A DNA stretch of 64,000 nucleotides from NCBI GenBank assembly GCA_049325495.1, contig JBMOKV010000435.1:12124-76123 (forward strand). Direction: 5' to 3'. Under the pieces are notes generated by a model, which was not told the origin of the DNA, ran no database searches, and saw nothing but the letters and a program-made list of their open reading frames with translations. Of the stretch, positions 1 to 8,936 are shown piece by piece (the first letter of the stretch is position 1; every line of letters starts with the position of its first letter). A program made the translations under genes and the position numbers. The stretch is from Candidatus Rifleibacteriota bacterium. Its GTDB lineage: Bacteria > Muiribacteriota > Ozemobacteria > Ozemobacterales > Ozemobacteraceae.

Positions 1-44
1 TGTTTTACACGCCGGCGCCGCCGAAAGCCGAGGAGCTAGGCCGG

Positions 45-1214
45 TTGATCAAGTTCAATTCTAAGCGCTATCTGCCGTTGCCGCCATGCGTTATCAAGGC
101 ACGAACCGGCAAGGGTGAAAAGCAGGTCGAGATACGGGCGCGATTGCGGGAAACCGGCTATATGCAGATTTTCTGTGAAGAGCTTGCCGGTGATTTTACT
201 CAGGAGCTGCGTTTCGATATTGCCGAAAGCGATAAGAACCAGCAAACCCGCACCGAAACAAAACGTCGGGTGCCGATCACCAGTGCGCAGCTGAAAAAAA
301 TTGAAAAAACGCTTGAAGAAACTTTTGCCGGCAAGGCTGAATTCAATTGTTTGTTTAAAAGTATCGAAGATATTCTTGGTTCACCCCGTTCAAACTGGGA
401 TGCGGAAATGCTGCGCCAGCTGTTCGACATTTTCATCGAACAGGAAAAAGAGTTTACTCACACTCAGGCCGCCCATACCGTCTGGTTCAGGCTGCTGAGT
501 TATTGTCTGCGCCCTGGGTTCGGTGCGCGTGGTGATGCGGAGAGAGTTGATCGCATCTGGCAGATGCTCGAACATGAATTTTCTTACTCCAATCCTGAGT
601 TCTGGTCGGACTGGTGGGTAATGTGGAAGCGCATTGCCCCCGGGTTATCGCTTGAGCGGCAAGATCTGCTGAAAGCCCATATTGAGCCCATTCTTTTTCC
701 GCCTAAGAAAAAAGAAAAGTCGGCCCGCGAAGTGGCTCAACATGAGCGCAACCAGATCTGGCGACTGCTGGGCAATCTTGAGCGGTTGCCGGTAGCAGAA
801 AAAGAACGGCTGGGCTGGTGGGCAGTTAGGTCCCCCCAGAGCTACGGTAACGATCAGCTGGCACTGCATGCGGTCGGGCGCTTTGGGGCCCGCGATCTGG
901 CTTATGCCCCTGATACGGCCCTGGTTCCCCAGTCGGTTGCCAATGGCTGGGCCGAGCACCTGTTGAAAAAAGCGATTCCCGGCAATTCATATCTTGACTG
1001 GGCGCTGCGCGAGATTGGCCGCAAGACCGGCGACATGCTGGTTCAGATCGATGACCAGTTGCGCAAAAGTATAATCGAGGTTTTCAAGAAAAAGCACCGA
1101 AAAAAGGGTTTTATTGATCCATTGTTGAAGGCAGCGCGCCTCGATGATAAAGACCTTGCCGAATTTGCCGGTGAAAGTCTGCCAAGTGGTTTCGTCTGGG
1201 TTAAAGATAACTAA
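45..1214 (+). CDS. hypothetical protein (may extend upstream of window; the reading frame is open back to base 3)
   Basis: Long ORF with no stop between the window edge and the first Met. No recognisable motif. Lys/Glu-rich C-terminus. Confidence 0.5.
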   Translation: MIKFNSKRYLPLPPCVIKARTGKGEKQVEIRARLRETGYMQIFCEELAGDFTQELRFDIAESDKNQQTRTETKRRVPITSAQLKKIEKTLEETFAGKAEFNCLFKSIEDILGSPRSNWDAEMLRQLFDIFIEQEKEFTHTQAAHTVWFRLLSYCLRPGFGARGDAERVDRIWQMLEHEFSYSNPEFWSDWWVMWKRIAPGLSLERQDLLKAHIEPILFPPKKKEKSAREVAQHERNQIWRLLGNLERLPVAEKERLGWWAVRSPQSYGNDQLALHAVGRFGARDLAYAPDTALVPQSVANGWAEHLLKKAIPGNSYLDWALREIGRKTGDMLVQIDDQLRKSIIEVFKKKHRKKGFIDPLLKAARLDDKDLAEFAGESLPSGFVWVKDN

Positions 1215-1246: not shown

Positions 1247-1729
1247 ATGAGCTGTAAAGCTGAATATACGCCGCAGGAATGGCGTGATCTGATAACTCTC
1301 GCTTTTTATGTAATGGGCGAAAAGGCCGGCGAAATCAAAAAATCATTTTTTTTTACCAGGATAATCGGTCTGATTAAAGAAAGCCTCGCTTTTCAGGCTT
1401 CAATGAAGAAAGCCTCTGGAAAATACCCAACGAATGGCCTGATCGGGTCTCTGGTTTCCAGCATGTCGGCCGGCCCTGGTGAAAAAAGAGATTGCGATGT
1501 TCCTGAAGAGCTTCCCCATCTTGAAGAGCTGGTTTACCGGGTGAACCAGATTCTTGACGAAAAATCCGACGAAACCGAGGCTCGTGAATACCGGGCTTTC
1601 GTCTATGAACTTGCTTACGACGTATGCAAATCAGCCGGTGCCGGCTTTCTGGGCACCGGGGAAAATATTGATGCTCACGAGGCAGAATTTCTGCAGCGCC
1701 TGAAAACCGCCCTTCTCGGTGAAGAATGA
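1247..1729 (+). CDS. hypothetical small cytoplasmic protein
   Basis: 160-aa ORF. RBS-like GAGGAG upstream. The next gene begins 14 bp after its stop, suggesting an operon. Confidence 0.5.
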   Translation: MSCKAEYTPQEWRDLITLAFYVMGEKAGEIKKSFFFTRIIGLIKESLAFQASMKKASGKYPTNGLIGSLVSSMSAGPGEKRDCDVPEELPHLEELVYRVNQILDEKSDETEAREYRAFVYELAYDVCKSAGAGFLGTGENIDAHEAEFLQRLKTALLGEE

Positions 1730-1742
1730 AGCTTAAAGCATT

Positions 1743-3842
1743 ATGAAAAGCCTGGTTATTAAACGGGTGCTGTTTCTTGTTATTGCTTTAATTCTATTCT
1801 CATCGCAGGTTTTTGCGGCAAGAATAGGTATTTACCCGGGCAGCTTTGATCCTGTTCACCTGGGTCATCTTGAAGTGGCCAGAAGTGCTCTGGTTAAGCT
1901 GAATCTCGATGCGGTTTATTTTATTCCAAATGGTACCAATCCGCGCAAACCATCGATGAGCCCGATTGAACAGCGGGCTGAATTGATAAATGCAGCTTTG
2001 CAGGATTACAAAGATTCGCGGCTTCGGTTGTTTTCTGTTGCTGAAATTGAAAAGTCTTCATCGGCCGGCTCGATAGACCTGGCCCCGGTGCGCTTGCTCG
2101 AACTTGCCCGGCAGACGTTTGCGAATGACGAGATTTTTCAGATTCTTGGCACCGATTCGGTTTTCAAGGTGGTTGAAGGCAGTGGTGTCGAAAGAATTGA
2201 TGAAAAATGGCGGCTGGCAGTATGTAATCGGCCCGGGGTTGAGTTTAAACTGAATCGGGTTTGTCGCAACCTGCAAAGTCAAGGGTTATTGCATCTTTTC
2301 GACAGTTTTTCCGATCTTGAAATTTCTTCTTCGGCGATCAGAAAAGCCTGTAAAAATGGCGACCTGGGCTTTGTGGCTTCTGTTCTTACTCCGTCGGCTT
2401 ATTCCGCTTTATTGAAACAGGGTTCACATGGGCTAGACAGTAGTTCAGCATGGCTTGAAGCTCTTTTACAATCGCCTGGTGATAAGCTGGCGGCTGATCG
2501 TTTCCCTCAGGCTGAGCCGGTGATGTTGCGGCAAAGTTACCATCTGCATACAGGTTTTACGAAGTTTCGTTTCAGTTATGTTGAGCCTTTGCCGGAAGCT
2601 CTCGCCATAGATTTTTCCAGATCTCATTCTCTCGGTGATTTGCGTACCTATGTCGAGAACAAACTGACGCCGCTGGGAATCAAAGTTTTGAGAAATCCGT
2701 CGGTTGAAGTCATAATTTTTCCAGGCAATCAGGACCAATTGTCGCACTGGCTGGCGCAGCAGGGTGTCGAATCCGGGCAGAGAATTACGCGTAATCGTTC
2801 ATTCATTACTCTTGGCATCCATCTGGTAAAGACTGCTGATTCGAGGTTTCTTGCCATTGTCGATGAGGTTTACGGTCACGATCGCATGCGCCACACTCAA
2901 GCTCTTGTCGCGGCAGCGCAGCACATTTCCGGGCGATTTCCTGCTGTCTTCAGGGTGGTTGACTCACCTGATTTCCCGACCGATGTCGCCACAATTTATT
3001 CTGAAGAACTCAAGGCAGTAGTACCCGGCACAATTGATGCGGCAATCATCGGATTTCACTGGAAGATTGTAAACGATCTCGAACGAAGGAATGCTCTTTA
3101 CAGGCTCAGCGGTAACCTTGTTGCCATAAAGGCCGGAACACTTGCACAAAAATGGCGACAATGGCGGACGAAGCTGCAACCGGCCGGTGAAAAACATTCC
3201 TGGCCGCGTCGGCATTTTGCAAATCAGAATGTCCCTTTTTCTTTTTTAGCATTTCAAGACAATAGCAATCGCCCGGTGAATGTTTTGTTGACGAGAAATG
3301 TTTATGGTGACCAGCTCAAATCCCTGCTGGAGGTCTTGATAAAAGAAAAGAAGATTAAAAAAATCATTTTATTTGGTAATGCCGGCGGGCTGGCAGCTGA
3401 TTGCGCGGTAGGTGATATTGTTGTGCCTGACGAGGTTAGAAGGTTCAACACCTCATGGGTTTCTATCAAAAATAGCCTCCTTGAAGAGAGCGCAGGTCTG
3501 GAAAAGTCTTCTTCCGGGCGTATTTATTCCGTTTTTTCGCCGCTGGTCGAAACTGATGCTTTTATTGATGATGTAAAAGCCCAGCAGGCGATCGCCATCG
3601 ACGTCGAGAACGGTTACCTGCCGGATTTTTCTGCTTCAGAAAATGTAATTCTGGGAAGTATTGCGGTCATATCAGATGTTCCTGGTTCTGCTGAGACTCT
3701 TGCGCATATTGAAGAAAACGAAAGCAAAATGGAATCATCGCTGGTTAAATGCCTCGATCTGATTATCGGCAATCTTGGTCTGATCGGCCCGAGTGAGCAC
3801 CCCTTTCCTGTAAGCGGCCAGCCTTCGCTCAATATTGAATAG
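1743..3842 (+). CDS. membrane-anchored NadD-like nucleotidyltransferase fused to a PNP/MTA-nucleosidase-like (phosphorylase superfamily) C-terminal domain
   Basis: The N-terminus has a 26-aa hydrophobic stretch, then the (H/T)xGH motif IYPGSFDPVHLGHL. NadD-like blocks follow (FIPNGTNPRKP, GSIDL...FQILGTDS, CNRPG). The C-terminal ~250 aa carry ILFGNAGGLAADCAVGDIVVPDEV and AIAIDVENGY, typical of the PNP_UDP_1 family. Confidence 0.6.
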   Translation: MKSLVIKRVLFLVIALILFSSQVFAARIGIYPGSFDPVHLGHLEVARSALVKLNLDAVYFIPNGTNPRKPSMSPIEQRAELINAALQDYKDSRLRLFSVAEIEKSSSAGSIDLAPVRLLELARQTFANDEIFQILGTDSVFKVVEGSGVERIDEKWRLAVCNRPGVEFKLNRVCRNLQSQGLLHLFDSFSDLEISSSAIRKACKNGDLGFVASVLTPSAYSALLKQGSHGLDSSSAWLEALLQSPGDKLAADRFPQAEPVMLRQSYHLHTGFTKFRFSYVEPLPEALAIDFSRSHSLGDLRTYVENKLTPLGIKVLRNPSVEVIIFPGNQDQLSHWLAQQGVESGQRITRNRSFITLGIHLVKTADSRFLAIVDEVYGHDRMRHTQALVAAAQHISGRFPAVFRVVDSPDFPTDVATIYSEELKAVVPGTIDAAIIGFHWKIVNDLERRNALYRLSGNLVAIKAGTLAQKWRQWRTKLQPAGEKHSWPRRHFANQNVPFSFLAFQDNSNRPVNVLLTRNVYGDQLKSLLEVLIKEKKIKKIILFGNAGGLAADCAVGDIVVPDEVRRFNTSWVSIKNSLLEESAGLEKSSSGRIYSVFSPLVETDAFIDDVKAQQAIAIDVENGYLPDFSASENVILGSIAVISDVPGSAETLAHIEENESKMESSLVKCLDLIIGNLGLIGPSEHPFPVSGQPSLNIE

Positions 3843-3958: not shown

Positions 3959-4031
3959 GCGGGAGTAGCTCAGTTGGTAGAGCATCAGCTTCCCAAGCTG
4001 AGGGTCGCGGGTTCGAACCCCGTTTCCCGCT
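3959..4031 (+). tRNA. tRNA-Gly (anticodon CCC)
   Basis: A 73-nt cloverleaf can be folded by hand. Acceptor stem GCGGGAG/TTCCCGC. D-arm GCTC-AGTTGGTA-GAGC. Anticodon stem-loop TCAGC-TTCCCAA-GCTGA. T-arm GCGGG-TTCGAAC-CCCGT. Discriminator U73 as expected for Gly. No encoded CCA. Confidence 0.9.
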
Positions 4032-4040
4032 TAGAAAAAG

Positions 4041-4076
4041 AGCCCTGAAACCATTATAGTTTCAGGGCTTTTCGCT
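4041..4076 (+). terminator. rho-independent terminator after tRNA-Gly
   Basis: Hairpin AGCCCTGAAAC / GTTTCAGGGCT with an 8-nt loop, followed by TTTTCGCTTT. Confidence 0.6.
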
Positions 4077-4115: not shown

Positions 4116-4454
4116 TCACTCATTTTTTGTGAGTCGGTATTTCTGCAGGCGGCTGTTAGGTTTGTCAGGGATTGTGTATTCGACGACGCCTGTTTTCAGC
4201 ATTTGCGCCATCAGATCGTTAAGATAACGATTTGGGCGGCATTTTCCAGGCCTGGCGGCGATTTCGCTTTTGCTAAGAGGCTGATTCTTCAGCATTGCCA
4301 GAATAATCTGAGCCATTTTTGACTCTACCCCTGACTCTACCCCCGTTGTAACTTGTGCCGGGCCGGTGATTTTTACTACGGCAGGGCGTTCTGGGTAAGT
4401 CATGGTGTCGGGGTATCTGACGATGATTTTGAAGATTCCAGCGAAAACATTCAA
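4116..4454 (-). pseudogene. remnant of a Fic/AlbA_2-associated winged-helix C-terminal domain protein (truncated)
   Basis: The C-terminal motif IPDKPNSRLQKYRLT matches the conserved tail of Fic/HATPase_c_4-type proteins. Only about 110 aa remain and the N-terminal domains are missing. The ORF lies directly next to tRNA-Gly and contains a 12-bp tandem duplication. Confidence 0.4.
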
Positions 4455-4700: not shown

Positions 4701-5477
4701 ATGAAATCCTGTAGTAAATGTGGGAAAACCTTTCCAGATGGCGTTAAACTCTGTCCATTTGATCGAATTCCTTTGCAAAGTGGATCAGCCTCACCCGCAT
4801 CCTCGGAAAGCACAAATAAAGCGGTTGATAAGGCTGTTGCCAGAACCAGTTCCGTAGCTGATCACAGTATTTCTGGAATTGGGCTTGAAAAAGACGGGGC
4901 TGATCGCATTCTTGTTCCCAGTAGAACCTTTATTCATTCTATTTTCGGCTCTGGAATAATAATTGGTGCAGTGATGCTTTTCATGGTTTTTGCGAGCATC
5001 ACCGGGGCAAAAGCAAAAGGTGGATCAGCAGCACCTGAAATGTCTGGAACTACAGCCATTATAATGTCTCTTCTTGGAATTGGTTTTCTAGGCGGCGGAA
5101 TCGCAATGCGCAATTTCTTCAAGCATTACACAGTGATTGATCTAAAGCGGCGCAAACTACTGCGTTTGAACAGGGTAATGGGTAAAGTAATCGAAGAAAC
5201 GCTGGCGGGTGACCTTAACAATGTTAAGGAGCTGGCTATTAGAGACCGGGTTTCTCATGTGTCGGCAGATATGGTTCTGGACATGATTACCGGTGTATTC
5301 AAAAAAGACAAAGCGACAAATCAAATGCTTGAAGGTCGTGACTTTTCTCTGGTGGCAGTGATGCGAGATGGCAAGGATATTGAAGTTACTTCCTACACTC
5401 CTGGGGAAAAGTCCTACCAGCTTGCTGACCAGCGACGCGAATATCTTGATTCTCTTCTTTTTTCCAAACCAGGCTAG
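4701..5477 (+). CDS. zinc-ribbon / two-transmembrane-helix protein of unknown function
   Basis: N-terminal CxxC...CxxD zinc-ribbon (CSKCGKTFPDGVKLCPFD). Two hydrophobic helices at about aa 80-135. A roughly 120-aa C-terminal domain. AT-rich promoter region upstream. Confidence 0.6.
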   Translation: MKSCSKCGKTFPDGVKLCPFDRIPLQSGSASPASSESTNKAVDKAVARTSSVADHSISGIGLEKDGADRILVPSRTFIHSIFGSGIIIGAVMLFMVFASITGAKAKGGSAAPEMSGTTAIIMSLLGIGFLGGGIAMRNFFKHYTVIDLKRRKLLRLNRVMGKVIEETLAGDLNNVKELAIRDRVSHVSADMVLDMITGVFKKDKATNQMLEGRDFSLVAVMRDGKDIEVTSYTPGEKSYQLADQRREYLDSLLFSKPG

Positions 5478-5530: not shown

Positions 5531-6418
5531 ATGTCAATAAGTTTTAACCATTCCGATTACTTGCAGGCGGCCTTCAGCAAACTTGAGCAGGAGTTTGCGG
5601 CCGTCGAAAATTCGCTGGCGCTGTTCGTTTTTGGCAGCAGTGTGAACGGCGACTTCTGGGAGCATTCAGACATCGACCTGTTTTTCGTCCTGTCCGGTGA
5701 TTCGGAAGATTTTCTCGAATGCACTATGCTCAGGCATGAACGGTTCAACGTGCATGTCCAGTATTTCACCCGCGCTTCTTTTTTGAAGAAAATCGATGGT
5801 CTGATTGGGCGCCCTTTTCATACGGCTCTGTCATCGGGTCGCTTTTTATTCTGCAAAGATCCGACTTTGGAAAAAAGAGTAGCGGATGTCTGCGCCGTTC
5901 CTGAGCCAGATCGGTCTCTGCGAAGCCTTGAAGAATATTCGGCGGCTCTATATCACCTGTATCATGCCAGAAAGAATTTGCATTTCAAACGGGATTTTGA
6001 TTCTCGGTTCTCATTTTGCCAGGCGTTGAACCATTATTGCCGCGCTCTGGTATTTAGAAACGGCAGTTTGCCGCGCCGTGATCCGGTTCAACAGGCAAAA
6101 CAAATGAAAATTTTAAACGAAGAAAAATTTCTTCAGGCCGATTTAAGCTCTGAAACTTTCGAATTTTTTCACCAGCATCTGTGCAGCCAGGCCCCGGAAT
6201 TCGCCGCCTGCCTGGTTGACCTGCTGCGCCAGAAAGGCGAACCCCGCACCGAAGAACAGCTCGAAACAGATTTTTCCCGGATCGCCCTGCACCCAGATCC
6301 GCTTATGACAGTTCTGGAAAGCCATGGTCTGGTCAGGCGCATCGAACAGACTTTCTCAATCAATAATCGCAAGATTTTCAAAGAACTGGCATGGCAGGCT
6401 GTTTTCCAGATTGAATAA
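5531..6418 (+). CDS. Pol-beta superfamily nucleotidyltransferase domain protein
   Basis: The motif FGSSVNGDFWEHSDIDLFFVL is a GS...DxD nucleotidyltransferase signature (KNTase/MNT-like). The C-terminal part is helical. The gene starts 54 bp after the upstream gene. Confidence 0.65.
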   Translation: MSISFNHSDYLQAAFSKLEQEFAAVENSLALFVFGSSVNGDFWEHSDIDLFFVLSGDSEDFLECTMLRHERFNVHVQYFTRASFLKKIDGLIGRPFHTALSSGRFLFCKDPTLEKRVADVCAVPEPDRSLRSLEEYSAALYHLYHARKNLHFKRDFDSRFSFCQALNHYCRALVFRNGSLPRRDPVQQAKQMKILNEEKFLQADLSSETFEFFHQHLCSQAPEFAACLVDLLRQKGEPRTEEQLETDFSRIALHPDPLMTVLESHGLVRRIEQTFSINNRKIFKELAWQAVFQIE

Positions 6419-6515: not shown

Positions 6516-7388
6516 TCAGCGTGGTTTTATCGGGACATAAATGTCTACTTCTGGTACTGTTTTGAGGCAGCGTTCGTCGTATAGTTCGAAGTCTTCGGTG
6601 TTGGTGCGGATATACCTGGTCTGGCCGGGGAGCCAGGTGCCGTAGATGTATTTCCAGACTTCTTGAATTGCTTCTGGCATTGGGCCCTTTGAGGTGAAAA
6701 CGGCGTAAGTCGAGGCTGGGATGCGCCGTGCTACCATTCCGGCGGGAATTTCGGCGGTCGATGAGACTTCAGCGCCGATCATGTAGATGAAACAGCGCGA
6801 ATTTTCGTCGCCGTCAGCGCAAATGCCGTATTCTTTCCAGGGGGTAACCTTGTTGGGGATCTTCTGGCTCGTCTTTTCCTGCATGTAGCGCTGCCAGAAC
6901 ATCGGGATCTCCTTGAAATTCTGACCGTCAGGAGTTGTCGCTATCTGCTTGCCGATCACCACAAATTCAGGTTTTTCAACGATTACTGGTTCCATTTTTC
7001 CGCTCCTTAAATGAAGATTTTGCTGCAGCTGTGCCAGATCGCGGGGAGCGCGAATTTCATAACAGAGCCCGTTTTTGCGGAAGCGGGCCGGCGTCAGCCC
7101 GAAGTGCTGCTTGAAGCTGCGGGTAAACGCTTCCTGTGAGGCGAATCCATAATCAACGGCAATCTCGATGATGCGCCGCCGACTGGCTACCAGCTCGTTG
7201 GCAGCCAGTGTCATGCGTCTTTTCCGGATATACTCCTTCAGTGTGTCGCCAGTGAGCGCGGCGAAAATTCGATGAAAGTAAAAAAGCGAACACCCAGCAC
7301 TCTCGGCAACCGCAGTCAGCTCCATGTCTGACCTGATGTTGTCTTCGATAAACTGCAGCGCCTCCGCTACCCGGTCAAGATAATCCAA
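6516..7388 (-). CDS. AraC-family transcriptional regulator with C-terminal GyrI-like effector-binding domain
   Basis: N-terminal AraC HTH (FYFHRIFAALTGDTLKEYIRKRRM...IAVDYGFASQEAFTRSFKQHFGLTPARFR), then a roughly 150-aa GyrI-like domain. Confidence 0.8.
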   Translation of the reverse strand: MDYLDRVAEALQFIEDNIRSDMELTAVAESAGCSLFYFHRIFAALTGDTLKEYIRKRRMTLAANELVASRRRIIEIAVDYGFASQEAFTRSFKQHFGLTPARFRKNGLCYEIRAPRDLAQLQQNLHLRSGKMEPVIVEKPEFVVIGKQIATTPDGQNFKEIPMFWQRYMQEKTSQKIPNKVTPWKEYGICADGDENSRCFIYMIGAEVSSTAEIPAGMVARRIPASTYAVFTSKGPMPEAIQEVWKYIYGTWLPGQTRYIRTNTEDFELYDERCLKTVPEVDIYVPIKPR

Positions 7389-7550: not shown

Positions 7551-8936
7551 TCAATATGCCGGTTCTATTTTTGCAATGTCTTCAGGGGTTGAACAGCTGA
7601 GTTTCCAGTCATTCGCCATGCGCTGTCTTGAAAAACGCTTGTGCCCGCGTGAGTAAAAGCGGTAGCCGATATTGGCCAGAATCGTGTATTCAAGGAAAGT
7701 GCGCGAACCGGCCAGGCGCTGGAAAATGTTTGAGATGCTGTAGGCGGTTTTCCATGCGCGGTGGTGCCCTTCTTCAAGCTGCTCGATCGTCATGTGTTTC
7801 GGCTGAAAAACCACGTGTTGAGCGTCGTAAAGGGTCCAGTTCTCGGTAAGAATGCGTCCTTCCTTTTTGAGGCGGTTGAAAAATGGCGTACCGGGAAACG
7901 GTGTGCAGATCGTAAAGCGGGGCAGATCGACTTTCGCATCGAGAATGAAGTCGAGAGTGCGGTCGAAGCAGTCGGGATCGTCGTTGTCGAGGCCATGAAC
8001 AAAGCAGCCCATTACCGAAATGTTGCGCGAATGCAGTTCGTTCATCAGTCGCTTATATTTGTTAATATCGTTAAAACCCTTGCCGATATTTGCGTTACTG
8101 CTTTTGGTAAGCGTTTCAAAGCCAATCAGCAGGCCAAAACAGCCGCTGGCTTCCATGGAATCGAGCAGTTCTGGATTGTCGACGATTCGGGTGGTTGCCA
8201 GGCCGCCCCAGCGCTTTTTCAGGGGTATCATCGCCTTGTTGAGGGCAATTGCATAATCCACATTTTCCACCGGGCTTGGGTCAAGAAAGGTTACGTAGCG
8301 CCCCCCCATGTTTCTTACTTCGTTAACCACGTCTTCGATGGGCCGGCGCTCATATTTGCCTTTACAGATAATCGGAGTAACGCAGAATTCACATTGGTTC
8401 GGGCAGCCGAAAACTGCCTGGGTGCTGTTGGTCGTGATGAATTTTTTCTGGGCAAAAAAATCGCGGCGGGGGTCGGGAATCAAGGACCATTCAATTTCTT
8501 TGGGAGGGTGGTAAAACTTCTGCAGCCTGCCTTCACAAAAATCATCAAGCAGCTTTGGCCAGGTTTCATAAGCATGGCCCATTACCACCGCGTCAGCGTG
8601 CTTTGCCGCTTCTTCCGGCATCAGCGTTGCATGGGGTCCGCCCATTACCGTAGTAATGCCCTGCCGGCGAAAATATTCGCAATAGGCATAGGAACGCATC
8701 GATACCCCGGTGATGCCGGTCAGGCCTACAATGTCTGCCTTGATTTTCGTCGGGTCGATGGTTTCGACACTTTCGTCGTAGACTGTTACTTCACCGCGTA
8801 GTTCCTGGGGAATCAGGGCGGCAAGGGTAACCACGTTGAGCGGGGCATAGCGCAGAGAATATGGAAAAACGCCGGTTCCATGGCGGTACAGGCCGGTGCG
8901 GGGCGAAATCAAGGCAATATTCAGTTTCTTTTTCAT
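7551..8936 (-). CDS. B12-binding domain radical SAM protein (class B radical SAM family)
   Basis: N-terminal cobalamin-binding-like Rossmann region. A CxxxCxxC cluster (CPNQCEFC) in the radical-SAM core. Length 461 aa, typical for the family. Confidence 0.75.
   Translation of the reverse strand: MKKKLNIALISPRTGLYRHGTGVFPYSLRYAPLNVVTLAALIPQELRGEVTVYDESVETIDPTKIKADIVGLTGITGVSMRSYAYCEYFRRQGITTVMGGPHATLMPEEAAKHADAVVMGHAYETWPKLLDDFCEGRLQKFYHPPKEIEWSLIPDPRRDFFAQKKFITTNSTQAVFGCPNQCEFCVTPIICKGKYERRPIEDVVNEVRNMGGRYVTFLDPSPVENVDYAIALNKAMIPLKKRWGGLATTRIVDNPELLDSMEASGCFGLLIGFETLTKSSNANIGKGFNDINKYKRLMNELHSRNISVMGCFVHGLDNDDPDCFDRTLDFILDAKVDLPRFTICTPFPGTPFFNRLKKEGRILTENWTLYDAQHVVFQPKHMTIEQLEEGHHRAWKTAYSISNIFQRLAGSRTFLEYTILANIGYRFYSRGHKRFSRQRMANDWKLSCSTPEDIAKIEPAY

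What the first reader, a model, noticed from the sequence alone, without database searches (positions are those of the whole stretch)
1743..3842. Membrane-anchored NadD-like adenylyltransferase fused to a PNP/MTA-nucleosidase-like domain
The N-terminal roughly 190 aa carry nicotinate/nicotinamide-mononucleotide adenylyltransferase signatures (GSFDPVHLGHL, FIPNGTNPRKP, SID...ILGTDS, CNRPG). The C-terminal roughly 250 aa carry phosphorylase-superfamily motifs (GNAGGL...GDIVVPDEV). A roughly 250-aa middle region is unassigned. A 26-aa hydrophobic leader precedes the Rossmann strand, and there is no alternative in-frame ATG or GTG start after it. A three-domain, apparently membrane-tethered NAD-metabolism fusion is unusual. 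It could couple NMN/NaMN adenylylation to nucleoside or nucleotide cleavage in salvage, or to degradation of an NAD-derived signal.
Basis: partly seen in the sequence, partly recalled or inferred. Interest (0 to 1): 0.55.

Follow-up and report, generated by a model that had tools for sequence, protein, structure and literature searches.

The report
Exported NadD-like/nucleosidase fusion enzyme of Riflebacteria
This is a real, conserved gene found only in the uncultivated Riflebacteria; it encodes a protein that is probably exported from the cytoplasm and joins an ATP-using NadD-like domain, a domain of unknown fold and an adenine-releasing nucleosidase-like domain, and its chemistry is still unknown.

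Summary
Window 1743..3842 (+) is one 699-aa ORF. CTP_transf_like/NadD covers aa 27-226 (Pfam E 1.9e-14; Foldseek target TM about 0.83). The PNP/MTAN-type fold covers aa 433-690 (Pfam 33.5 bits; target TM about 0.68).

The fusion is not an artefact. About 20 independently assembled relatives (24-98% identity) share the layout, and every named one is Candidatus Riflebacteria/Ozemobacteraceae.

New points:
- The leader has the shape of a cleavable Sec signal peptide, with small residues at -3/-1 in 14 of 15 full-length relatives examined. Export is more likely than a membrane anchor.
- The NadD-like domain keeps its ATP motifs but lacks the features that mark canonical NadD's NaMN pocket, so it is probably not an NAD-synthesis enzyme.
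- The nucleosidase domain keeps the Glu/Asp pair but not MTAN's water-activating residues.
- The 200-aa middle domain models confidently (pLDDT 89). It has no Pfam, PDB or viral-structure match and only 16 hits (one spurious) among 1.84 billion representatives.

Best guess, with low confidence: an extracytoplasmic enzyme that processes adenine-containing (di)nucleotides. This is a new variant built from known enzyme folds, of moderate interest.

The parts
1743..3842 (+). Complete ORF, 699 aa plus stop: leader, NadD-like domain, orphan middle domain, PNP/MTAN-like domain
   Evidence: Orthologues with the same layout appear.
1743..1817 (+). Predicted Sec signal peptide, aa 1-25 (MKSLVIKR / VLFLVIALILF / SSQVFA). 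Predicted SPase I cut is after VFA, between A25 and A26.
   Evidence: This is the only hydrophobic segment. The n/h/c pattern with small residues at -3/-1 is conserved in relatives. The predicted mature N-terminus 'ARIGIY..' equals the native N-terminus of stand-alone NadD relatives, 'MARIGI..'. No dedicated predictor was available.
1821..2420 (+). NadD-like nucleotidyltransferase domain, aa 27-226
   Evidence: Pfam PF01467, E 1.9e-14. TIGR00482 scores 82 bits, below its cut-off of 112. Foldseek matches NadD structures with target TM 0.77-0.85. phmmer to B. subtilis NadD 1kam gives E 1.7e-12.
1857..1868 (+). HxGH motif (H39-L-G-H42), the ATP/transition-state site of the nucleotidyltransferase fold
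   Evidence: H39 and H42 are invariant in 15 of 15 family members.
2322..2342 (+). ISSSAIR motif (aa 194-200), equivalent to NadD's ISSTxxR beta/gamma-phosphate site
   Evidence: S195 and R200 are invariant and S196 is present in 14 of 15.
2163..2186 (+). Segment FKVVEGSG (aa 141-148), at the position where canonical NadD carries its conserved Trp/Tyr. This family has no aromatic residue here.
   Evidence: Alignment with Mtb NadD and with stand-alone NadD relatives P0054-57. Column contents are listed.
2424..3038 (+). Orphan alpha/beta middle domain, aa 228-432. Invariant residues are W237, H295, G378 and R381. R352, Y303, D290, H384 and R350 are nearly invariant.
   Evidence: AF2 model of the domain alone has pLDDT 89 and pTM 0.86. 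No Pfam hit in 15 of 15 members. Best Foldseek PDB hit E 0.19 with TM below 0.3. Best BFVD hit E 0.23. PDB profile search gave nothing below E 0.24. It is not a duplicate of either flanking domain. Only 16 hits in 1.84e9 representatives.
3039..3812 (+). PNP/MTAN/HpnG-like (NP-I fold) domain, aa 433-690
   Evidence: PF01048 scores 33.5 bits. HpnG TIGR03468 scores 40 bits over aa 524-645. Foldseek matches MTAP, PNP and MTAN structures with target TM 0.59-0.68 over about 270 columns. Profile hit to AMP nucleosidase 1ybf, E 8e-5.
3108..3236 (+). Family-specific insertion in the PNP fold, aa 456-498, containing the W-P-R-R-x-F motif. It is partly disordered in the model.
   Evidence: Low pLDDT at aa 479-497 and the secondary-structure map. 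Conservation of W487.
3375..3392 (+). GNAGGL loop (aa 545-550), equivalent to GSAGGL of MTAN
   Evidence: HMMER alignments to MTAN structures. G545 is invariant.
3606..3608 (+). E622, in 'DVE', aligned to E174 of E. coli MTAN (ribose-binding Glu)
   Evidence: Alignment to 3o4v (that stretch scores weakly). Present in 13 of 14 members.
3675..3677 (+). D645, in 'ISDVPG', aligned to D197 of E. coli MTAN (the acid that protonates purine N7)
   Evidence: Alignment to 3o4v. Present in 13 of 14 members. The equivalent Asp is required in the immune PNP effectors Cap17 (D472) and DtcC (D353) (bioRxiv 10.1101/2023.01.24.525353).
1247..1729 (+). 160-aa ORF directly upstream with a 13-nt gap. It belongs to a Riflebacteria-only family with no Pfam domain and is an operon partner only in one subclade.
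   Evidence: It is adjacent to the fusion in the window, L001 (three tandem paralogues, 4-nt overlap), L002/L003/L005, L006 and L009. It is absent beside the copies in L004, L007, L008, L010 and L013-L016. It also occurs without the fusion in L017 and L018. Its family is described.

Best explanation
The gene encodes one polypeptide that is exported through the Sec pathway. Its signal peptide is probably cut after VFA25, which would release a soluble periplasmic or secreted enzyme of about 674 aa.

The enzyme has two catalytic modules and an orphan domain:
- A NadD-derived nucleotidyltransferase domain. Its ATP/pyrophosphate site (HxGH, SSxxxR) is intact, but its second-substrate pocket has been rebuilt, so it probably does not handle NaMN/NMN.
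- An MTAN/HpnG-like N-ribosidase domain. It retains the ribose-binding Glu and the purine-protonating Asp, so it probably releases adenine or another purine.
- A middle domain of unknown fold with invariant His/Arg residues. It may bind a phosphorylated ligand or couple the two catalytic sites.

The most likely role is extracytoplasmic processing of adenine-containing nucleotides or dinucleotides (ADP-X compounds such as NAD, FAD or ADP-ribose, or AMP). In this scheme the NadD-like module works on the pyrophosphate linkage in the cleaving (reverse) direction, and the nucleosidase module frees adenine for uptake.

Shown: the gene is real, the domain identities and boundaries, motif conservation, the rarity and taxonomic restriction of the family, and the absence of a conserved neighbourhood.

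Inferred: export and cleavage, the substrates, the direction of the first reaction, and any coupling between the two sites.
For: - The fused gene is real and conserved.
- The leader fits a signal peptide. The n-region carries net +2 to +7, the best 12-residue hydrophobic window scores KD 2.6-3.3, and [VIL]-x-[AG] precedes Ala in the close homologues. AXA-like or lipobox-like sites appear in divergent members: P0011 VGA|A, P0013 AAA|G, P0015 VWA|F, P0017 AAA|A, P0018 AMA|C, P0012 AIS|C with a 30-residue linker. Other secreted-type proteins of the phylum use the same style, for example the CBM20-esterase in L008 with '..NQVFG|EK'. Stand-alone NadD relatives have no leader.
- The ATP motifs are invariant over 24-68% identity. 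The acceptor pocket is remodelled relative to canonical NadD.
- The PNP domain keeps GxxGG, the 'ETxxF' segment, E622 and D645. Its nearest named models are HpnG, MTAN and AMP nucleosidase, all adenine-releasing enzymes.
- All three domains diverge at the same rate: 35.5%, 34.3% and 36.1% identity to L008. This fits one functional unit.
- Precedents exist. Borrelia exports the MTANs Bgp and MtnN for adenine salvage (PMC7557402). Haemophilus degrades NAD in the periplasm with NadN and Hel (PMC10694654). Lig E is an ATP-dependent nucleotidyltransferase targeted to the periplasm (PMC10799422).
- In L007 an MFS transporter gene follows the fusion by 75 bp on the same strand.
Against: - The periplasm is not known to contain ATP or pyrophosphate. 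Strict conservation of the triphosphate-binding motifs argues for a real NTP- or PPi-dependent reaction.
- No hydrolase is known in this nucleotidyltransferase superfamily (my own knowledge).
- A conserved Arg or Lys sits at +2 of the predicted mature protein in most members. This can hamper Sec export in E. coli (my own knowledge).
- No signal-peptide predictor or experiment was available.
- Apart from L007, no transporter or salvage gene is linked to the fusion.
- Riflebacteria have large genomes, so auxotrophy is not expected.
- MTAN's water-activating Glu12 and Arg193 are absent, so even the nucleophile of the second reaction is unknown.
- The E622/D645 correspondences to MTAN rest on a sub-threshold alignment stretch (-1.2 bits) plus fold agreement, not on a structure-based superposition of residues.
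Confidence: 0.35

Rival explanations
1. Cytoplasm-facing, membrane-tethered two-step biosynthetic enzyme. The uncleaved leader anchors the protein to the inner membrane. The NadD-like domain adenylylates a phosphorylated acceptor (X-P + ATP gives ADP-X + PPi). The nucleosidase domain then strips adenine, leaving a 5-phosphoribosyl-type adduct. This copies the logic of HpnG (adenosylhopane to ribosylhopane) and MqnB.
For: The ATP-binding motifs are strictly conserved, which fits a compartment that contains ATP. HpnG is the best-scoring named PNP model. The acceptor pocket is remodelled. The middle+PNP module also occurs fused to unrelated Pol-beta-type nucleotidyltransferase domains in P0017 and P0020, which suggests a general link between nucleotidyl transfer and this nucleosidase.
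Against: The leader has positive charges at its N-terminal side, a short h-region of 11-13 residues and a conserved AXA-type c-region. These features predict an N-in orientation with the catalytic domains outside, and cleavage. An N-out/C-in anchor would not need conserved small residues at -3/-1. No lipid or isoprenoid pathway genes are linked to the gene.
Confidence: 0.2
2. Secreted toxin or effector that acts inside or on other cells, consuming ATP/NAD through the adenylyltransferase and destroying adenine nucleotides through the nucleosidase. The 160-aa upstream protein would act as an immunity factor or chaperone.
For: A signal peptide is combined with ATP-requiring chemistry. PNP domains can be lethal ATP nucleosidases (bioRxiv 10.1101/2023.01.24.525353). 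The small cytoplasmic partner ORF is translationally coupled to the fusion in one subclade. Pseudopilin genes lie nearby in L001, L008 and L013.
Against: There is no recognisable translocation or receptor-binding domain. The small ORF is missing next to most family members and also occurs without the fusion. All three domains diverge at similar, uniform rates across the family, which fits steady purifying selection on one unit better than the domain-swapping, hypervariable pattern typical of polymorphic toxins. There are no PADLOC or PHROGs hits.
Confidence: 0.1
3. Anti-phage defence protein in which a nucleotidyltransferase makes or senses a nucleotide signal and a Cap17/DtcC-like PNP effector depletes ATP.
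For: The NTase-plus-PNP logic resembles CBASS-Cap17. P0020 and P0017 carry Pol-beta NTase domains. L004 and L018 contain toxin-antitoxin, HNH or integrase genes nearby.
Against: There are no PADLOC hits at E up to 1 for the window protein or for five relatives; the only hits are to the generic NTase of P0020. The predicted export signal is incompatible with cytoplasmic ATP depletion. The family has a narrow, phylum-restricted distribution and no consistent defence-island context.
Confidence: 0.06
4. Ordinary housekeeping NadD (NaMN adenylyltransferase of NAD synthesis) that happens to be fused to a salvage nucleosidase.
For: The best family matches of the N-terminal domain are all NadD models. 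No second nadD lies in the 64-kb window.
Against: The domain scores below every NadD equivalog cut-off (82 against 112 bits for the best). It lacks the Trp, the SYTxDT loop and the PPHK motif that stand-alone relatives keep. It carries an export signal. An essential cytoplasmic enzyme would not be exported.
Confidence: 0.05

Closest known systems
NadD, nicotinate-nucleotide adenylyltransferase (PF01467 / TIGR00482; e.g. B. subtilis 1kam, Mtb 4s1o)
   Same: Same Rossmann-like nucleotidyltransferase fold (target TM about 0.8). The HxGH and ISSTxxR ATP motifs, the GxD motif and the RPG motif are all present. The predicted mature N-terminus is the same as in stand-alone NadD.
   Different: It scores below the equivalog cut-offs. 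The conserved Trp/Tyr after GxD is replaced by E/G/S. The (S)Y(T)xDT loop is replaced by a loop four residues longer. PPHK becomes NPRK. It is preceded by a signal peptide and fused to two further domains.
MTA/SAH nucleosidase (MtnN/Pfs), HpnG and AMP nucleosidase: adenine-releasing members of the PNP_UDP_1 (NP-I) fold
   Same: Same fold (target TM 0.59-0.68). The G-x-A-G-G loop, the 'DAFI' segment, a Glu aligned to MTAN E174 and an Asp aligned to MTAN D197 are present. HpnG is the best-scoring named model.
   Different: It scores far below all equivalog cut-offs. The MTAN residues Glu12 and Arg193 are not conserved. It has a 45-residue insertion with a WPRRxF motif and an invariant VYGDQ loop. 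It is always preceded by the orphan domain. There is no AMP-nucleosidase N-terminal domain.
Exported MTANs of Borrelia burgdorferi (Bgp, MtnN)
   Same: These are MTAN-fold nucleosidases with signal peptides. They are located on or near the cell surface and supply adenine for salvage (PMC7557402).
   Different: They are single-domain enzymes of a purine auxotroph, with no nucleotidyltransferase or orphan domain.
Bifunctional NMN adenylyltransferase fusions (NadM-Nudix, NadR)
   Same: An NMNAT-type nucleotidyltransferase is fused to a second nucleotide-processing domain. Weak NCBIfam hits to NadM-Nudix models appear.
   Different: The partner domains (Nudix hydrolase, ribosylnicotinamide kinase) are unrelated to PNP. 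Those proteins are cytoplasmic and have no orphan middle domain (my own knowledge of these families).
Immune ATP nucleosidases (Cap17 of CBASS, DtcC of Detocs)
   Same: A PNP-fold domain with an essential Asp is fused to other domains and cleaves adenine from ATP/dATP (bioRxiv 10.1101/2023.01.24.525353).
   Different: There is no PADLOC match, no defence-operon context, and a predicted export signal.
[quoted passage not shown]
   Same: It poses the same puzzle: an ATP-dependent nucleotidyltransferase carrying an N-terminal periplasmic leader (PMC10799422).
   Different: Its fold and substrate are unrelated (DNA ligase adenylation domain plus OB fold).
Periplasmic NAD/nucleotide-processing enzymes NadN and Hel (e(P4)) of Haemophilus influenzae
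   Same: They break down NAD and nucleotides outside the cytoplasm to importable pieces (PMC10694654).
   Different: They are phosphatase/nucleotidase folds that release nucleosides rather than free bases. There is no homology.

Membership tests
NadD (nicotinate-nucleotide adenylyltransferase, TIGR00482 and related equivalogs) | Rossmann-like nucleotidyltransferase fold | tested here: met
   Foldseek matches solved NadD structures with target TM 0.77-0.85.
NadD (nicotinate-nucleotide adenylyltransferase, TIGR00482 and related equivalogs) | HxGH and ISSTxxR ATP-binding motifs | tested here: met
   H39, H42, S195 and R200 are invariant in 15 of 15 members.
NadD (nicotinate-nucleotide adenylyltransferase, TIGR00482 and related equivalogs) | Score at or above the curated equivalog cut-off | tested here: not met
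   TIGR00482 scores 82.2 bits against a cut-off of 112.45. All ten other NadD models also fall below their cut-offs.
NadD (nicotinate-nucleotide adenylyltransferase, TIGR00482 and related equivalogs) | NaMN pocket features: conserved Trp/Tyr after GxD, the (S)Y(T)xDT loop and the PPHK motif | tested here: not met
   Stand-alone relatives P0054-57 and Mtb/B. subtilis NadD have these features. The fusion family has E/G/S, a longer unrelated loop and NPRK instead. The functional role of these residues is from my knowledge of NadD structures.
NadD (nicotinate-nucleotide adenylyltransferase, TIGR00482 and related equivalogs) | NaMN + ATP to NaAD + PPi activity; essential cytoplasmic role | not testable with these tools
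   This needs enzymology or complementation. The predicted export signal argues against it.
PNP_UDP_1 / NP-I phosphorylase-nucleosidase superfamily (PF01048) | Pfam gathering score and NP-I fold | tested here: met
   33.5 bits against 25.1. Foldseek target TM 0.59-0.68 over about 270 columns. Several divergent relatives fall below the Pfam cut-off.
MTA/SAH nucleosidase (MtnN; PRK05584 / TIGR01704) | Ribose-binding Glu (E174) and purine-protonating Asp (D197) | tested here: met
   E622 and D645 align to them (weak-scoring stretch, consistent with the fold). Each is conserved in 13 of 14 members.
MTA/SAH nucleosidase (MtnN; PRK05584 / TIGR01704) | Water-activating Glu12 and Arg193; equivalog score | tested here: not met
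   The positions read 'FHWKI' and 'A/V' and are not conserved. Scores are 24.8 against 169 bits and 19.4 against 73.8 bits. Residue roles are from my knowledge of E. coli MTAN.
HpnG (hopanoid-associated phosphorylase, TIGR03468) | Equivalog score and hopanoid gene context (hpnH, shc) | tested here: not met
   40.3 bits against a cut-off of 187.1. No hopanoid genes appear in any of 11 neighbourhoods.
AMP nucleosidase (Amn) | N-terminal regulatory domain (PF10423) plus catalytic domain at equivalog score | tested here: not met
   No Pfam hit in the middle domain. No fold match to any PDB entry. NF005500 scores 17.7 bits against 264.
Sec-type cleavable signal peptide (SPase I) | Positively charged n-region, 7-15-residue hydrophobic h-region, polar c-region with small residues at -3/-1 | tested here: met
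   Manual and scripted inspection of 15 family members. 14 of 15 end in a [VILA]-x-[AGS] site close to the first beta-strand, and P0012 has a lipobox-like or A-x-S site followed by a linker.
Sec-type cleavable signal peptide (SPase I) | Positive call by a trained predictor; demonstrated cleavage or export | not testable with these tools
   SignalP, DeepTMHMM and experiments were not available.
Immune ATP nucleosidase effectors (Cap17/DtcC clade of PNP) | Match to defence-system models and location in a defence operon (CBASS, Detocs and others) | tested here: not met
   No PADLOC hit at E up to 1 for the window protein or for five relatives, apart from a generic NTase hit in P0020. Neighbourhoods are heterogeneous. 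Whether PADLOC 2.0.0 contains Cap17/DtcC models was not verified.

The most novel reading that the evidence does not exclude
The family performs nucleotidyl-transfer chemistry outside the cytoplasm. One option is that it converts an exported or environmental ADP-containing dinucleotide. Another is that it builds a ribosyl-pyrophosphoryl compound: adenylylate a phospho-acceptor, then remove adenine. In either case the orphan His/Arg-rich middle domain would act as a new ligand-binding or catalytic fold. This would be a previously unknown extracytoplasmic nucleotide pathway specific to Riflebacteria.
Probability: 0.15. Interest if true: 0.75.

Novelty: new variant of a known kind. Interest (0 to 1): 0.5.

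Why it matters
If the prediction of export holds, this is a rare case of an ATP/PPi-type nucleotidyltransferase operating outside the cytoplasm, a puzzle shared so far with Lig E. It would be physically coupled to an adenine-releasing nucleosidase. Working out its substrates would show how an uncultivated phylum handles extracellular nucleotides or dinucleotides, or would reveal a new 'adenylylate then de-adeninylate' route.

The 200-residue middle domain models confidently yet matches nothing in Pfam, PDB or the viral structure set. It is therefore a candidate new fold or ligand-binding module.

On the practical side, public records label the family only as 'adenylyltransferase/cytidyltransferase family protein' or 'hypothetical protein'. 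The domain map, motif table and family alignment produced here give an annotation and a set of point mutants to test.

If the protein turns out to be a plain salvage enzyme, the finding is a modest addition to nucleotide-scavenging biology.

Tried and rejected
- A profile search of PDB sequences with the middle domain found nothing below E 0.24. Pfam found nothing in 15 members.
- hhalign of the middle domain against the family's own NadD and PNP domains showed no internal duplication, with probability below 2%.
- P0019, a 3404-aa protein hit by the middle-domain profile, is spurious. It is a repeated 'ILFSHSVGDLDLRLY' motif in a repeat protein.
- PADLOC and PHROGs gave no hits for the fusion or its relatives.
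- The downstream Pol-beta nucleotidyltransferase at 5531..6418 is not related to the NTase domains fused to the module in P0017 and P0020.
- The 160-aa upstream ORF was tested as an obligate partner and rejected. It is absent beside most family members and is found without the fusion. Its profile has no PDB relative. My impression that its C-terminus resembles TerB could not be tested.
- Full-text searches for DUF3731/DUF2760 and for NadD-PNP fusions returned nothing.
- The search for a separate canonical nadD was inconclusive. There is none in the window or the fetched loci. The protein search with the NadD domain returned only 7 hits of unknown taxonomy. Whole genomes could not be scanned.
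- The frameshift or mis-assembly explanation is rejected because of conservation of the fused layout.


Full report
**The observation**

The window has a single ORF at 1743..3842 on the + strand, 699 aa. A TAA stop lies three codons upstream in frame. Within the first 40 codons only codon 1 (ATG) and codon 9 (GTG) can start translation, and both lie before the hydrophobic core. The 25-residue leader is therefore part of the protein.

Pfam finds CTP_transf_like at aa 30-201 (E 1.9e-14) and PNP_UDP_1 at aa 530-573 (E 3.8e-8), both above their gathering scores. NCBIfam ranks eleven NadD models first; the best is TIGR00482 at 82 bits. Next come HpnG (40 bits, aa 524-645), MTAN models and AMP nucleosidase, all below their curated cut-offs.

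An AlphaFold model built on eight sequences (pLDDT 79.4, pTM 0.75) superposes on solved NadD structures (target TM 0.77-0.85) and on MTAP, PNP and MTAN structures (0.59-0.68 over about 270 columns). The secondary-structure map places the whole NP-I fold at aa 433-690. That leaves aa 228-432 as a separate alpha/beta domain.

**The fusion is not an artefact**

A search of 5.8 billion protein clusters found seven relatives (55-98% identity). Six are full length with the same layout. A genome scan added four distinct loci beyond one already in hand, including a 35%-identical copy in another Riflebacteria MAG and a copy on a complete 5.2-Mb Ozemobacteraceae chromosome.

A profile of the middle domain, searched against 1.84 billion representatives, found only 16 proteins. 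Ten new ones of 588-1020 aa have the layout leader, CTP_transf_like, middle, PNP; for P0016 and P0018 Pfam reported only CTP_transf_like, and their PNP region is seen in the family alignment. Every member that carries an organism name is Candidatus Riflebacteria or Ozemobacteraceae; one is labelled only 'bacterium'.

The three domains diverge in step: 35.5%, 34.3% and 36.1% identity to the L008 copy. This is the pattern expected of one functional unit.

**The leader**

In the close homologues examined by script, the N-terminus has three parts:
- a K/R-rich start with net charge +2 to +7;
- a short hydrophobic core, whose best 12-residue window scores KD 2.6-3.3;
- a polar stretch ending [VIL]-x-[AG] just before Ala and the first beta-strand (VFA|AR, VYA|AR, LFA|AK, IFA|AR, VFG|AK, VSA|AN). 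L008 reads SVFA|SQKR by inspection.

The more distant members keep the pattern while the sequence drifts freely: VGA|AE, AAA|GE, VWA|FG, LRA|SE, AAA|AD. P0018 (AMA|CPGSG) and P0012 (AIS|CPGNQG plus a 30-residue linker) could equally be lipoprotein signals.

Bona fide secreted-type proteins in the same phylum use the same style. An example is the CBM20-esterase next to the L008 copy. Stand-alone NadD relatives start directly at 'MARIGI..', which is what the fusion protein would look like after cleavage, 'ARIGIY..'.

There is no other hydrophobic segment. The charge distribution and the short core predict N-in/C-out, so the enzyme domains are outside the cytoplasm whether or not the leader is cut. 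I could not run a trained predictor. A conserved Arg or Lys at +2 is slightly unfavourable for Sec export (my own knowledge).

**The NadD-like domain**

H39 and H42 (HxGH), R78, S195 and R200 (ISSTxxR-type) are invariant across 15 members at 24-68% identity. G136, D138, K69 and R163 are nearly so. The ATP/pyrophosphate site is therefore under selection.

The pocket for the second substrate is not NadD-like. Canonical relatives, and the Mtb and B. subtilis enzymes, have a Trp eight residues after the GxD motif, an (S)Y(T)xDT loop and a PPHK motif. The fusion family instead has E/G/S residues, an unrelated loop four residues longer, and NPRK.

From my knowledge of NadD crystal structures, these are the elements that stack on the pyridine ring and read the nicotinate carboxylate. 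The domain therefore derives from NadD but probably uses another acceptor. No second nadD lies in the window. The rest of the genome could not be examined.

**The nucleosidase-like domain**

HMMER alignments to E. coli-type MTAN place GNAGGL on GSAGGL, 'DVE622' on 'EME174' and 'ISD645' on 'ISD197'. The latter stretch scores weakly (-1.2 bits) but agrees with the fold match.

E622 and D645 are each kept in 13 of 14 members. G545, Y521-G522-D523 and K536 are invariant. The Asp is the residue whose mutation kills the immune ATP nucleosidases Cap17 and DtcC.

The positions of MTAN Glu12 and Arg193, which activate water (my own knowledge), are not conserved. No conserved Arg cluster for phosphate is evident either. 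Hydrolase versus phosphorylase is therefore open. A family-specific 45-residue insertion (aa 456-498, W-P-R-R-x-F) sits between the first helix and the second strand.

**The middle domain**

Modelled alone on 15 sequences, it is confident (pLDDT 89, pTM 0.86). All of the following searches were negative:
- Foldseek finds nothing significant in the PDB (best E 0.19, TM below 0.3, only beta-alpha-beta-beta-beta fragments of glyoxalase-like proteins).
- Foldseek finds nothing significant in the viral set.
- Pfam finds nothing in 15 of 15 members.
- A PDB sequence-profile search finds nothing.
- It is not a diverged copy of either neighbouring domain.

Its invariant residues are W237, H295, G378 and R381. 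R350, R352, H384, Y303 and D290 are nearly invariant. This composition suggests, but does not prove, binding of a phosphorylated ligand.

It never occurs without the PNP domain. In P0021 the pair stands alone. In P0020 the pair is flanked by Pol-beta-type nucleotidyltransferase domains instead of NadD. P0017 has NadD in front and, at its C-terminus, a domain 42% identical to the N-terminal NTase-like domain of P0020. The recurring companion of the middle+PNP module is thus a nucleotidyltransferase of one kind or another.

**Context**

In the window the gene follows the 3' end of an Hsp70-DUF3731 gene and a 160-aa ORF, and it is followed by tRNA-Gly(CCC). The 160-aa ORF is next to the fusion in one subclade only and also occurs without it.

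Across eleven distinct neighbourhoods nothing else is shared. One copy is followed by an MFS transporter. There are no PADLOC or PHROGs hits.

**Interpretation**

The firm conclusions are anatomical:
- the gene is genuine;
- the family is restricted to one phylum;
- the protein is probably exported;
- it has three domains, with two apparently competent active sites and an orphan domain.

The mechanism is inferred. I favour extracytoplasmic processing of adenine-containing nucleotides or dinucleotides with release of adenine (confidence 0.35). Three precedents support this:
- exported MTANs exist in Borrelia (PMC7557402);
- periplasmic NAD breakdown is established in Haemophilus (PMC10694654);
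- a periplasm-targeted ATP-dependent nucleotidyltransferase, Lig E, is documented (PMC10799422).

The weak point is the source of ATP or pyrophosphate outside the cytoplasm.

The main rival keeps the enzyme on the cytoplasmic face, adenylylating a phospho-acceptor and then removing adenine, as HpnG does for adenosylhopane (0.2). It fits the conserved ATP site but contradicts the leader's features.

Toxin (0.1), defence (0.06) and housekeeping NadD (0.05) readings have specific evidence against them. The remaining probability covers functions not considered here.

**Novelty and score**

Both catalytic folds are well known, and public records already label the protein a cytidylyltransferase-family member. 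The combination, the export signal on a NadD-derived domain and the orphan domain are undescribed. I therefore rate it a new variant of a known kind, with interest 0.5.

Noticed in passing
window 1-1214 (+); L002 3706-9430; L017 1-5531: The window opens inside a gene whose C-terminus is a DUF3731 'DnaK-related' domain (E 1.1e-57). In L002 and L017 the same position holds a three-gene operon of DUF2760, HSP70 and HSP70-DUF3731. Full-text search found no paper mentioning either DUF.
   Followed up: partly
window 1247-1729 (+); L001 8450-10004: The 160-aa ORF belongs to a family of at least 28 clusters. All named members are Riflebacteria and none has a Pfam domain. Three paralogues sit in tandem in L001. 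It has a conserved C-terminal 'GxGFLGxxENIDAxEAELLxRLK' motif, which reminded me of TerB-like domains; that was not tested. In L017 it sits beside the Hsp70 operon and a HAMP-cyclase, and in L018 beside an integrase.
   Followed up: partly
window 3959-4031 (+), 4041-4069, 4116-4454 (-): tRNA-Gly(CCC) lies immediately downstream of the fusion gene. It is followed by a strong 13-bp hairpin that could terminate in both directions, and then by a 112-aa ORF that matches only the C-terminal domain of Fic-like proteins (E 2.5e-11). This may be a remnant of an element integrated at the tRNA.
   Followed up: no
window 5531-6418 (+): A 295-aa Pol-beta-type nucleotidyltransferase (Polbeta, NTP_transf_2) has weak PADLOC hits to candidate system PDC-S09 (E 1e-5). 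It is not related to the NTase domains fused to the middle+PNP module in P0017 and P0020.
   Followed up: partly
window 4701-5477 (+): A 258-aa protein has an N-terminal zinc ribbon (weak Pfam hits) and, by inspection of the translation, glycine-rich hydrophobic segments. It has no family assignment.
   Followed up: no
L009 9480-10724: A contig binned as 'Candidatus Methylomirabilis sp.' carries the 160-aa ORF (75% identity, with a frame break) followed by a copy of the fusion gene at 82-94% identity. That copy has lost most of the NadD domain, half of the middle domain and most of the PNP domain. It is either a decayed pseudogene or an assembly or binning artefact.
   Followed up: partly
P0053 + P0007 (same 8154-bp ENA contig): One orthologue is called as two proteins: 174 aa with the NadD part and 518 aa with the rest. 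This probably reflects a frameshift or sequencing error in that assembly. The near-identical L007 copy is intact (701 aa).
   Followed up: partly
L001 5484-8384 (-); L013 1-5805 (-); L014 2-832 (+): Class III adenylate/guanylate cyclase genes lie within a few genes of the fusion in three of eleven neighbourhoods, and directly upstream on the same strand in L014. Riflebacteria loci are rich in signalling proteins, so this may be chance. No statistics were done.
   Followed up: no
P0017 aa 722-936; P0020 aa 107-323: A roughly 215-aa domain with a 'GFWGGSAxDLL...DIDL' motif is 42% identical between the C-terminus of P0017 and the N-terminus of P0020. Its Pfam similarity to MdcG and aminoglycoside-2''-adenylyltransferase is weak. 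It looks like a mobile nucleotidyltransferase-like domain that travels with the middle+PNP module.
   Followed up: partly
L007 12163-13332 (+): An MFS_1 transporter gene (E 3e-27) lies 75 bp downstream of the fusion gene on the same strand in the complete Ozemobacteraceae chromosome. It is the only transporter linkage seen.
   Followed up: no
window 6516-7388 (-), 7551-8936 (-): An AraC-family regulator with a GyrI-like/Cass2 effector-binding domain sits next to a B12-binding radical SAM protein. Neither is related to the finding.
   Followed up: no
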